A DNA stretch of 63,772 nucleotides, filler included, from an uncultured Methanosarcinales archaeon (GTDB taxonomy: Archaea > Nanobdellota > Nanobdellia > Woesearchaeales > DSVV01): assembly GCA_964593285.1 (NCBI GenBank). It is 4 parts of 4 records of this genome, joined end to end, with 100 filler letters (N's around TTAATTAATTAA, not from the genome) between each part and the next. Parts side by side here need not be neighbours in the genome. Positions count along the whole stretch, not along the records: positions 1 to 21,772 come from CAZQHZ010000019.1; 3 more parts are not named here. One strand, written 5' to 3'. Every line of letters begins with the position of its first letter. Position 1 is the stretch's first letter. Made by a program: the position numbers. This document shows positions 6,001 through 9,000 of this stretch, in pieces.

Positions 6001-9000
6001 TAATTTTGAAACAGAAATTGTTTTAACTGTTGCATTTGCTTTTTTTGCACCATTTATATATTTTTTAAATAATTCACCACAAAAAGAGTCAATATTTGGA
6101 TGACCTAGTATTACCAATATTTTTTTATTATAATTATTTTCATTCATTTTATTTAGTAAAATTTTTTAAAATAAAAAGATTGTTATAAAAATTAGAATAT
6201 TTATAATAATTAAAAATTTAATTTAATAATAAGGATATTATTTATATTTGATTTCTTCAATTACTTTTTTATTATGTGTAGATATTATATGAAAATATCT
6301 GTCTTGAGGAATATGAATATATGGCACATCTTCTTCATTTCTAAACATAAAACAAGATAAAATTGCTCTATTTACAGCTTGATGGCCTATTATTAAAATA
6401 TCATTTCCACCATCTGACAAATATATTGCTTTTCTTAAACCTAAATATACTCTTTTTTTAAGATCTTTATAACTTTCACCATTAATATATTGATAATTAT
6501 ATTTATCTTTTGTTCTAGATTTATATTCATTATAATAATTCTTTTTTATATCATTATATGTCATTGAATCAAATATCCCACAATTTATTTCATTAAATTC
6601 AGATAATTTAATTATTTTTATATCCTTTTTATTTTGAAAAAATTCTGCAAAATTAATGCTTCGTTTTTTAGTACTTGTAAATATATATTTTATTTTTTTA
6701 TTTTTAAGATTATTATATAATTCTAATGCTTGCTCTTTTCCTTTTTTTGTTAATGATGAATTTCCTCCAATTTTTCCTTTTTGATTAAATAAAGTTTCAC
6801 CATGTCTTGCAAGAAAAAGATTGGTAATATTATCTGATGTTAAAATATCTCTTATTCTTGAATAAAAATAAAAATGATCTGTTATTTTTTCATTAATTAT
6901 TTTATTTGAAAATGAATCAATCTTAATCATATTATTTTCATCTAATCTTTCAAAAGACTTTTCATAAAAAGAAATTCTTTTTTTAAAACTATTAATTGCA
7001 TCTTTTTGATCCATACTTTTAAAATCAGATATTTTAGATTTATTAATTATTGAAAGTTTTAATATTTTAAAATTATTATTTACACATTCAATGAATAACG
7101 TGTTATGTTTTATTTTTTTTTTAATTAGTTCTCGTCTTTTAATTGTGGAATTTGTAGCATCAAGTATTGCTATATTGCCTTTTTTATTTAAAAATGATGA
7201 TGCAGAATTAATATTTTCTTGTGCAATTAATTCTCTAATATTTTTTCCTTTTTCATTATTATTATCAAAAAAATCAGGTGATGCACCATTATTTAATCGA
7301 TTTCTTCTAACTTCACCATTATTAAAAATTTTAACATTTAATCCATAACTAATTAAACTATTTTTAATTTTGTTTGCAATTATAGATTTACCTCGAGCAG
7401 GAAGTCCAACCATAACTATGCATATTTTTTCAGTTTTCATTTTTTGTTTAATTTATAGAATAATAATATATAAAAAAATTAATTATTTAATAAATTTTAG
7501 GTATAAAGCATATTTAAATGTAGCATAAATTATATTACATCTTTTCTAGTATATGTGGTATGTAATAATTTATGTGCTTTCTTGCCACCATATTCGCCCA
7601 AATATTCTTTATATAATTTTATTACAGATGGATTTTTATGTGATAAACGTATATTTTTTCTTGAATCTAAATCATTTAATAATTTTATACGTTTTTCAAT
7701 TTTCTTTTTATTAGTATGTGGCTGTCCACCACCACCAATACACCCACCATAACATGCCATAACTTCAATAAAATCATATGTGCAAGTATTATTTTTAATC
7801 TGCTCCATTATTTTTCTTGCTTCACCTAAAGTGTGAACAACACAAACATTTAATGTTTTTTTACCAAAATTTATTTTTGCCTCCTTTAGAGTTTTCATAC
7901 CATGAATTTTATTAAAGTTTATTTTTTTAAAATCTTTAACACCAAGCCAATCTGCAGCTGTTCTAAGAGCAGCTTCCATAACACCACCGCTTCTTCCAAA
8001 AATAGCAGCAGCACCACTGCTTTCACCTAAAGGATTGTCAAATTCACTATCTTCTAAATTTTCAAAATCAACATCCAATTGCTTTAATAATTTTGCAAGT
8101 TCTATAGTTGTTAAAACATAATCTGCTTCACCAAAAAATTCAGGTCTTAAGATTTCATATTTTTTTGCAGTGCATGGCATAATATCTACCAAAATAATAT
8201 CTTTTGGATTTATTTTCATTTTTTTTGCAAAATAAGTTTTTGTAAGAGATGCTAGTATTGCTTGTGGACTTCTGCATGAAGACATATGATTTAATTGATC
8301 GTAAAAAAATTGTTCACCAAATTTAATCCATGCAGGACAGCATGTTGTAATCATTGGCATATTTTCATTCTTTTTGAATCGTTTAATAAATTCAGTTGCT
8401 TCTTCAACAATTGTAATATCAGCTGCAAAATCTGTATTAAAGACTTTGTTAAATCCAATTTCTTTTAATGCAGTCACCATTTTTCCAGTAACCGTTCTTT
8501 TTGTTAAATTAAAACACTCACCTAGTGTTGCTCTAATTGAAGGTGCGGTTTGTACAATTAAATATTTATCAGAATTTAATGCATCAATTACATGCGAAAT
8601 ATCAGATTTTTGAGTTAATGCACCAGTTGGGCATGAAATTACACATTGACCACAATTAACACAGCTACTTTGATCCATGTTTTTTTCAAAAGGTGGTTTT
8701 ACAACTGTTTTAAAACCTCGGTTTTGAAGTCCTATTGCATAAACAGTTTGTATCTCATTACAAACTCTAATGCATCGTTCACATAAAATACATTTATTAT
8801 TATCTCTCCTAATAGAAACACTAGAATTGTCAACATCTTCATGTCTTTTTTCTCCAAAATATCGTAAATCTTTTATCATAAATTCTTCTGCATACATTTG
8901 TAATTTACAATCTCTATTTCGCTCACATGTAACACAGTTTAAATCATGATTTGCAAATAATAATTCTAAATTAATTCGTCTAGCTTCTAAAACTTTTGGT

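What a model noticed while it worked through the whole genome (the two positions that open the first line are those of the whole stretch)
6238..7440. Eukaryote-type bifunctional 6-phosphofructo-2-kinase/fructose-2,6-bisphosphatase in an archaeon without PFK-1
g00997 (400 aa) is a full-length PFK-2/FBPase-2 with the kinase P-loop GLPARGKS and the phosphatase RHGE motif, encoded next to the electron-bifurcating [FeFe]-hydrogenase genes. I suggest that this archaeon makes fructose 2,6-bisphosphate, a regulator regarded as eukaryotic, and that it acts on a non-classical target, because neither PfkA-type PFK-1 nor class I FBPase is present. That would extend Fru-2,6-P2 signalling to Archaea.
Evidence so far: Pfam 6PF2K 2-190 (E 5e-43, hmm 10-208/223) + His_Phos_1 208-395 (E 5e-35); Swiss-Prot best hit a PFKFB-type isozyme, 31% id, E 1e-37. 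Motifs at residues 12-19 and 212-215. relatives.tsv: 6PF2K in 22 of 822 Woesearchaeales, 49 of 10,117 archaea, 0.5% of bacteria. Glycolytic Pfam rows: PfkB-family kinase g00095, IMPase/FBPase-type g00068, class II aldolase g00224; no row named PFK or FBPase.
(Added by a program. Inside this text positions count along the whole contig: they may not be those of the stretch shown here. "Call 12" and the like, gene names such as g00115 and contig names such as C1 are that model's own, and its searches are not shown. The text may have been shortened before it was handed on; [...] marks where a part breaks off. The agent that wrote the report below was given it as the finding of a first reader that could run no searches.)

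Follow-up and report, generated by a model that had tools for sequence, protein, structure and literature searches.

The report
Archaeal PFK-2/FBPase-2 lacking its usual targets
A tiny fermenting archaeon carries an intact gene, under purifying selection, for the two-headed enzyme that makes and destroys the sugar signal fructose-2,6-bisphosphate; the gene belongs to a family common in sulfate-reducing bacteria, is rare in these archaea, and sits in a genome where neither of the signal's textbook target enzymes was found.

Summary
The ORF (6238-7440, minus strand, 400 aa) is a real, intact PFK-2/FBPase-2. It keeps 27 of 29 checked active-site residues, and 6 of 6 strain differences are synonymous. 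The contig is archaeal.

'Eukaryote-type' needs amending: its nearest kin (about 50% identity) form a Desulfobacterota-dominated prokaryotic clade, noted in print for Desulfovibrio. This scan reported bacterial copies at least six times; no archaeal one came up.

It is rare in Woesearchaeales: 4 of 421 genomes searched. The hydrogenase neighbourhood is not conserved (0 of 83 loci).

All four archaeal holders lack PfkA and class I FBPase, whereas 4 of 4 bacterial holders tested have class I FBPase, which lies near the gene in 24 of 80 loci. 'No PFK-1' is overstated: a conserved PfkB kinase (65 of 81 genomes; near an aldolase in 10 of 33 loci) is the likely working PFK.

Best reading: the enzyme makes Fru-2,6-P2 (about 0.8), and this tunes fermentative glycolysis through a non-classical target (0.5). 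Neither product nor target is shown.

The parts
6238..7440 (-). Bifunctional PFK-2/FBPase-2 gene, 400 aa, without the long N-terminal extension of the rat enzyme
6871..7437 (-). Kinase (6PF2K) domain, residues 2-190; Fru-6-P pocket residues R45, R46, R69, D94, T96, R102, R155, Y159 and K134 kept
7384..7407 (-). P-loop GLPARGKS, residues 12-19
6256..6819 (-). Histidine-phosphatase domain, residues 208-395; R212, H213, N219, R260, E284, Y295, R309, K313, Y324, H353, Q354, R358 all identical to the rat and duck enzymes
6796..6807 (-). RHGE motif, residues 212-215 (H213 = rat testis H256)
   Evidence: PDB 2bif title
7467..7474 (-). TATA-like octamer starting 34 bases before the ATG, in the genome-wide peak position; suggests the gene has its own promoter (inferred)
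   Evidence: 71 matches at -35..-26 among 547 genes against 2-12 in each other 5-base bin
7530..11647 (-). Context only: trimeric NADH-dependent [FeFe]-hydrogenase genes (hydC 11048-11647, hydB 9249-11045, hydA 7530-9233); linkage not conserved
5560..6147 (-). Context only: flavodoxin-fold NAD(P)H oxidoreductase, 90 bp downstream; linkage not conserved

Best explanation
The gene encodes a working 6-phosphofructo-2-kinase/fructose-2,6-bisphosphatase of the prokaryotic, Desulfobacterota-dominated clade. The N-terminal P-loop domain moves the ATP gamma-phosphate to the 2-OH of fructose-6-phosphate, and the C-terminal domain removes it through a phospho-His213 intermediate. Shown: fold, domains and residues. 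Inferred: the chemistry (about 0.8). In the bacterial relatives the likely target is class I FBPase. The archaeon most likely got the gene from such bacteria long enough ago for its codon use to match the genome, and kept it without that target. It probably uses Fru-2,6-P2 as a read-out of fructose-6-phosphate supply to tune its glucan-fuelled fermentative glycolysis. The candidate targets, in order, are the PfkB-family kinase that probably serves as its PFK, its pyruvate kinase, and its IMPase-family phosphatase (all inferred, none shown). With no N-terminal regulatory tail, the balance of the two activities is probably set by metabolites rather than by protein phosphorylation (inferred).
For: Residues: 27 of 29 checked sites are identical to the rat testis enzyme; 18 of the 29 are invariant in 202 prokaryotic-clade rows. 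8 of the 9 Fru-6-P-pocket residues named for PFKFB3 in PMC3177832 are identical and Thr48 is Ser. Selection: 6 of 6 strain differences in the gene are synonymous; GC3 and codon adaptation fit the genome (5th and 80th percentile of 664 ORFs). Substrate supply and pathway: glucan phosphorylase, PMM/PGM, two PGI-type isomerases, aldolase II, GAPDH, PK, PGK (6), TPI, dPGM, enolase, PorA (106), RnfC (54) and the hydrogenase; no full-length PEP synthase was found. Bacterial kin: class I FBPase in 4 of 4 genomes and within 6 kb upstream in 24 of 80 loci. Fru-2,6-P2 is a competitive inhibitor at the class I FBPase active site (PMC5639204). In a second archaeal holder the gene lies co-oriented between adenylate kinase and porCAB.
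Against: No assay and no product detected. No classical target in any of 4 archaeal holders, and no candidate target is shown common to them. PK was not found in G229 or G222 (G411 not tested). The PfkB of three holders has no distinguishing columns (2 against a mean of 0.8 in random triples; 98 of 500 reach 2), and G222's only PfkB match is a divergent one. The PK effector site is ambiguous. 417 of 421 order genomes searched gave no full-length match. The 24 FBPase-linked loci look like one lineage's shared gene order, with 2-4 genes on the other strand in between. The direction of transfer is not resolved: the archaeal rows sit at the base of the clade, not nested in it.
Confidence: 0.5

Rival explanations
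1. Same chemistry but a metabolic, not signalling, role. The two domains form an ATP-consuming Fru-6-P/Fru-2,6-P2 cycle or hexose-phosphate buffer, or the phosphatase domain doubles as the genome's missing fructose-1,6-bisphosphatase or a general sugar-phosphate phosphatase.
For: No PfkA or class I FBPase to regulate. No FBPase of class I, II or V was found (17, 36, 38). The IMPase has the SuhB-like D-L-R where its best PDB hit 2p3n has R-I-R (that 2p3n is a dual IMPase/FBPase and that this Arg matters is recalled). The gene sits among energy-metabolism genes in 2 of 4 archaeal holders.
Against: The phosphatase pocket is as in the vertebrate Fru-2,6-P2-specific enzyme at all 13 checked sites. 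The kinase half is kept intact in all four archaea, which a phosphatase-only role would not need. G000 has no full-length PEP synthase, so it has little use for a gluconeogenic FBPase.
Confidence: 0.2
2. The whole prokaryotic clade phosphorylates another ketose phosphate (for example sedoheptulose-7-phosphate or tagatose-6-phosphate), so no Fru-2,6-P2 is made.
For: A very long branch separates the clade from eukaryotic enzymes. Clade-wide changes: N167 is S in 180 of 202 rows, D177 is E in 199, Q391 is R in 144. No assay of a prokaryotic member came up in my 10 paper searches.
Against: All Fru-6-P-pocket residues checked are kept. Linkage to class I FBPase (24 of 80 loci) and to 4-alpha-glucanotransferase (4 of 80) points to hexose-phosphate metabolism. 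The window protein itself keeps D177 and Q391.
Confidence: 0.12
3. A classical target exists but is missing from the assembly (PfkA, PPi-PFK or class I FBPase on an unassembled piece), so this is ordinary Fru-2,6-P2 control.
For: The genome is 95.9% complete in 38 contigs. Some Woesearchaeota encode pfk (14 genomes in PMC8421398; 6 in PMC8407392).
Against: PfkA and class I FBPase were not found in any of four holders (96, 91, 91 and 88% complete). tblastn of five bacterial PFKs and one class I FBPase against the genome gave nothing at E<=0.01.
Confidence: 0.06
4. The gene is a functionless passenger from a recent transfer, or the contig is a mis-binned bacterial piece.
For: Very patchy distribution (4 of 421), different neighbours in each holder, nearest kin bacterial. 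Several genes on the contig are of bacterial type.
Against: Tetranucleotide profile is typical (r 0.74; 35 of 59 pieces score lower; bacterial loci 0.14-0.29). The neighbouring RelA/SpoT has relatives in 47 of 121 order genomes, best 58% in the same family. One contig of run X1 spans 5581-10206, and run X2 of another study covers 5581-7204 and 7224-10500. Differences are synonymous only, and no database protein is above 51% identity.
Confidence: 0.04
5. The product acts on a partner: the archaeon feeds on bacterial cells and uses Fru-2,6-P2 (or the enzyme) to block the partner's class I FBPase or otherwise shift its hexose-phosphate pool.
For: The bacterial holders tested have class I FBPase and the archaeon does not. 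The runs that hold the stretch are microbial-mat metagenomes. An earlier, unchecked note on this genome describes a pilin-anchored wall-cutting enzyme (e1-4390620).
Against: The protein begins directly with the first beta-strand, with no leader. No transporter is linked, the host is unknown, and a bisphosphate would need a direct cytoplasmic bridge. Nothing here tests this.
Confidence: 0.05

Closest known systems
Vertebrate PFKFB1-4 (PDB 3bif/1bif rat testis, 2axn PFKFB3, 5htk PFKFB2, 1k6m liver)
   Same: Kinase-phosphatase order, folds and 27 of 29 checked site residues; E 7e-58 over residues 7-380; 35% identity to duck PFKFB3.
   Different: No N-terminal extension (alignment starts at query 7 against rat 40). 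The model's domain orientation differs (whole-chain TM 0.50, phosphatase domain TM 0.91; may be a monomer-model artefact). The host has no PfkA or class I FBPase.
Desulfobacterota / Scalindua PFK-2/FBPase-2 (unassayed as far as my searches show; Desulfovibrio desulfuricans named as the bacterial exception in PMC9721465, citing Rider 2004)
   Different: Bacterial holders tested have class I FBPase (4 of 4) and PfkA-superfamily PFKs (3 of 3); the archaeal holders have neither. Gene neighbours differ.
Trypanosomatid Fru-2,6-P2 control of pyruvate kinase (PMC4448766)
   Same: Precedent for a non-PFK target. The C-terminal domain of this genome's PK ranks 3e0v, 3pp7 and 1pkl first (Leishmania entries, identity recalled).
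   Different: The margin is trivial (29 against 27 bits for the 470-aa chains I recall as E. coli PykF). The basic residues recalled as binding the 2-phosphate are not clearly kept, and PK was not found in 2 other holders.
Stand-alone histidine phosphatases (PhoE, CobC, PspA) and stand-alone P-loop kinases
   Same: Each resembles one half; they account for most weak matches in Woesearchaeales.
   Different: Single domains; the window protein scores far below their NCBIfam cut-offs.

Membership tests
PFK-2/FBPase-2 (EC 2.7.1.105 / 3.1.3.46) | N-terminal 6PF2K P-loop domain fused to a C-terminal histidine-phosphatase domain | tested here: met
PFK-2/FBPase-2 (EC 2.7.1.105 / 3.1.3.46) | ATP site GLPARGK[T/S], DATN and K172 equivalent | tested here: met
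   K18, S19, D94, T96, N97, K134; roles of K172 and N131 recalled
PFK-2/FBPase-2 (EC 2.7.1.105 / 3.1.3.46) | Fru-6-P pocket (PFKFB3 T48, R74, R75, R98, D124, T126, R132, R189, Y193) | tested here: met
   8 of 9 identical, T48 is S (residue list from PMC3177832 passages)
PFK-2/FBPase-2 (EC 2.7.1.105 / 3.1.3.46) | Phosphatase catalytic His/Glu/His and Fru-2,6-P2-binding Arg/Lys/Tyr set | tested here: met
   13 of 13 checked sites identical to rat and duck; residue roles recalled except H256 (2bif title)
PFK-2/FBPase-2 (EC 2.7.1.105 / 3.1.3.46) | Makes and hydrolyses Fru-2,6-P2 | not testable with these tools
   needs an assay
PFK-2/FBPase-2 (EC 2.7.1.105 / 3.1.3.46) | Homodimer through the kinase domains (recalled) | not tested
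   no complex job sent; a pass would be expected from likeness to solved structures
Eukaryotic PFKFB clade | Branches among eukaryotic enzymes | tested here: not met
   falls in the prokaryotic clade, SH-aLRT 100, long stem
Classical Fru-2,6-P2 signalling | PfkA-superfamily PFK or class I FBPase as target in the same genome | tested here: not met
   0 of 4 archaeal holders, 88-96% complete
Trypanosomatid-type Fru-2,6-P2 control of PK | PK effector site with phosphate loop, basic residues and effector loop | tested here: inconclusive
   phosphate loop similar; basic residues depend on gap placement; effector loop divergent

The most novel reading that the evidence does not exclude
Some Woesearchaeales make fructose-2,6-bisphosphate, the first case in Archaea, and use it to control a target class never linked to it: a PfkB-family kinase that is the long-'missing' phosphofructokinase of these archaea, or pyruvate kinase as in trypanosomes. 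The archaeal copies may form one old lineage at the base of the prokaryotic clade (monophyly not rejected, p-AU 0.50).
Probability: 0.3. Interest if true: 0.75.

Novelty: new member of a known kind. Interest (0 to 1): 0.45.

Why it matters
Fru-2,6-P2 is taught as a eukaryotic regulator, with one Desulfovibrio exception in print. An intact, selected copy of its enzyme in archaea that lack both textbook targets means either a new target or a non-signalling use. A single 400-residue protein and a standard potato-PFP assay can test whether prokaryotes make the molecule at all. The side result, a PfkB kinase beside aldolases across Woesearchaeales, offers a testable fix for the often-stated gap in their glycolysis. 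The weight is limited: the family is already annotated in bacteria, the archaeal copies are rare (about 1%), and cultured Desulfovibrio relatives are the easier system.

Tried and rejected
First GTDB locus scan with the single protein found nothing. The alignment scan kept only the best 80 of 585, and its patterns cannot match G229's variant motifs, so it says nothing on archaeal absence.

The representative search was run by mistake on the C-terminal half; I used it only as a source of outgroups.

Hydrogenase-coupled function: no hydA, hydB, hydC or flavodoxin homologue in 83 other loci; rejected as a conserved link.

Mis-binned contig: rejected. '22 of 822' as a count of this enzyme: rejected for the 401 sampled (only 3 of the 19 weak hits opened). 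Phylum sample: 2 of 401 at E<=1e-20, both already known.

Phosphatase half as the missing phosphoglycerate mutase: rejected, a dPGM over its cut-off exists. Holder-specific PfkB residues: none beyond chance. Sigma-70 promoter scan: 54 sites against 51.8 expected, uninformative.

The careful tree did not finish, so only quick and FastTree trees are used; two mis-extracted rows (L103, P0257) were dropped. Expression: no RNA holder listed, which is no evidence either way.

Rider 2004 was not held under the id I tried. Michels and Rigden 2006 was not looked up. No supplements were read; those of PMC8421398 and PMC8407392 could list this gene.

Full report
OBSERVATION. The window joins several contigs; only places 1-21772 are contig C19 of a 1.18-Mb, 95.9%-complete genome. 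The ORF at 6238-7440 (-) is 400 aa and uninterrupted, with GLPARGKS at 12-19 and RHGE at 212-215. Pfam gives 6PF2K 2-190 (E 9e-42) and His_Phos_1 208-395 (E 8e-34). The 12 best PDB sequences are vertebrate PFKFB isozymes (best E 7e-58). An AlphaFold model (pLDDT 89.9) retrieves PFKFB structures first; whole-chain TM is only 0.50, while the phosphatase domain alone matches at TM 0.91, so the domain angle differs in the model.

ACTIVE SITES. I mapped 29 sites by hand from the rat testis alignment and checked them in an alignment that included a stored duck PFKFB3. 27 are identical; T52 is S and N167 is S. Of the nine Fru-6-P-pocket residues named for PFKFB3 in PMC3177832 (passages read), eight are identical. 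All 13 phosphatase sites are identical; their roles are recalled, apart from H256. In 202 prokaryotic-clade rows (some redundant, all chosen as relatives) 18 of the 29 sites never vary. Contigs of three mat-metagenome runs from two studies show six differences inside the gene, all synonymous; one run may be the source sample. GC3 and codon adaptation are ordinary for this genome. The gene is intact and under purifying selection.

IS IT ARCHAEAL? Yes. The tetranucleotide profile of C19 is mid-range for the genome and far from bacterial loci. The RelA/SpoT gene on the same contig has relatives in 47 of 121 order genomes. One X1 contig spans 5581-10206, and X2 contigs cover 5581-7204 and 7224-10500.

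KIN AND SPREAD. The nearest proteins are 45-51% identical and, where named, are mostly Desulfobacterota/Deltaproteobacteria. A Desulfovibrio exception is in print: PMC9721465 (passage read) says Fru-2,6-P2 is not found in bacteria except D. desulfuricans, citing Rider 2004, which I could not read. This scan has noted bacterial copies at least six times (unchecked notes). In the order, a full-length match occurs in 3 of 401 sampled genomes; a full family search adds one, G411 (2 of 28). That makes 4 of 421 distinct genomes. The families of G229 and G222 each have 1 of 4. In trees the archaeal rows fall in the prokaryotic clade with SH-aLRT 100 and a long stem from eukaryotes, at its unresolved base (quick trees only; the window row is compositionally biased). 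They are 38-53% identical to each other, and holding them as one clade is not rejected (p-AU 0.50). Transfer from sulfate-reducer-type bacteria is the likeliest origin given numbers and patchiness, but direction and number of events are not shown.

NEIGHBOURHOOD. The gene follows hydC-hydB-hydA after 89 bp and precedes a flavodoxin-fold oxidoreductase. Trimeric group A3 hydrogenases are described for Woesearchaeota (PMC8421398, passages). None of these neighbours recurs in 83 other loci. A TATA-like octamer lies 34 bases upstream, where this genome's genes show a clear peak, so the gene may be transcribed alone. G411's copy lies between adenylate kinase and porCAB; G229's is at a contig end and G222's lies between a protease-like gene and a subtilase-like gene (by eye). 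In bacteria, class I FBPase lies within 6 kb upstream in 24 of 80 loci, apparently one lineage's gene order, and 4-alpha-glucanotransferase directly upstream in 4 of 80.

TARGETS. PfkA and class I and V FBPases were not found in any of the four archaeal holders; class II was absent in the three tested, ADP-PFK in G000; class III was not searched. By contrast 4 of 4 bacterial holders have class I FBPase and 3 of 3 have PfkA-superfamily PFKs. Fru-2,6-P2 inhibits class I FBPase at its active site (PMC5639204, passages), so the bacteria have an obvious target and the archaea do not. The archaeon nevertheless has the rest of glycolysis from glucan phosphorylase to PFOR and no full-length PEP synthase. 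Its PfkB kinase has orthologues in 65 of 81 order genomes. In 10 of 33 loci fetched (about 1.5 kb each side; the best 29 of 64 matches plus 4) it lies near an aldolase: 3 class II and 7 DhnA-type, the one scanned scoring below the cut-offs of both FBP aldolase and ADH synthase. One locus reads GAPDH-PGK-PfkB-aldolase. I infer PfkB is the working PFK, against the published statement that most Woesearchaeota lack one (PMC8421398; PMC8407392, passages). It shows no holder-specific residues. PK is a second candidate by the trypanosomatid precedent (PMC4448766, passages and section 14). Its C-domain ranks entries that I recall as Leishmania PK first, but by under 2 bits and with the basic residues uncertain, and PK was not found in G229 or G222.

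MECHANISM. Shown: two intact domains, selection, archaeal location, substrate supply, absence of classical targets in the assemblies. Inferred: Fru-2,6-P2 synthesis and hydrolysis (about 0.8); a regulatory role on the archaeon's own glycolysis through PfkB or PK (0.5 overall). Rivals: a metabolic cycle or moonlighting phosphatase (0.2), another ketose phosphate (0.12), a missed classical target (0.06), action on a partner cell (0.05), a passenger or contaminant (0.04).

LITERATURE LIMITS. Ten searches covered an open-licence library only. 'Woesearchaeota' with '6-phosphofructo-2-kinase' gave 0 papers, and no assay of a prokaryotic member appeared. Most subscription papers and all supplements were unseen. 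I also used passages of PMC12203962 for known Fru-2,6-P2 targets; PMC11957543 did not give the residue numbers sought.

VERDICT. A real archaeal member of a known, prokaryote-inclusive enzyme family, unusual for lacking the classical targets. New member of a known kind; interest 0.45.

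Noticed in passing
L031:1438-2424 (G000:C1:87365-88348) and L160-L197: A PfkB-family kinase conserved in 65 of 81 order genomes lies near a class I- or class II-type aldolase in 10 of 33 loci, once as GAPDH-PGK-PfkB-aldolase (L193). It is a candidate for the 'missing' phosphofructokinase of Woesearchaeota. A different uncharacterised ~360-aa gene neighbours it in 13 of 33 loci.
   Followed up: partly
window 2933-4858 (-): Full-length RelA/SpoT (HD-SYNTH-TGS-ACT) in an archaeon; relatives in 47 of 121 order genomes. Already reported for 41.7% of Woesearchaeota (PMC8407392).
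   Followed up: yes
window 11048-11647 (-): HydC carries an extra ~55-residue basic N-terminal stretch ahead of the thioredoxin-like [2Fe-2S] domain, which starts at residue 64.
   Followed up: no
window 267-1676 (+): 469-aa histidine-kinase-like protein with only a weak HATPase_c match and no recognised sensor domain, directly upstream of phosphoglycerate kinase.
   Followed up: no
L041:556-1644 and 23 other loci among L035-L114: In one group of Desulfobacterota-type loci, class I FBPase sits within 6 kb upstream of PFK-2/FBPase-2, separated by YccA-like, radical-SAM-like and metallophosphatase genes on the other strand.
   Followed up: partly
L079:4428-5927; also L040, L049, L091: 4-alpha-glucanotransferase lies directly upstream of, and co-oriented with, PFK-2/FBPase-2 in 4 of 80 loci, 3 of them named Desulfovibrionaceae.
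   Followed up: no
P0163, P0274-P0287, P0195, P0204, P0221: A second set of ~408-aa two-domain PFK-2/FBPase-2 proteins, apparently prokaryotic (marine metagenomes; one labelled Methylobacterium sp.), branches closer to eukaryotes than to the Desulfobacterota clade.
   Followed up: partly
L140:653-2052 and L141:805-2141: A 199-aa P-loop kinase paired with an adjacent protein bearing a HAD-like start motif (by eye) recurs in two Woesearchaeales genomes; these give weak 6PF2K matches.
   Followed up: no
L131:4279-6568 (G000:C6:30278-32567): An archaeal-type PGI/PMI and a conventional PGI are encoded back to back; G229 also has both families.
   Followed up: no
G000:C34:3056-4468: 471-aa protein with a weak PPDK_N match only; G411, G412, G413 and G229 have similar second matches beside a strong PEP-synthase-type one.
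   Followed up: no
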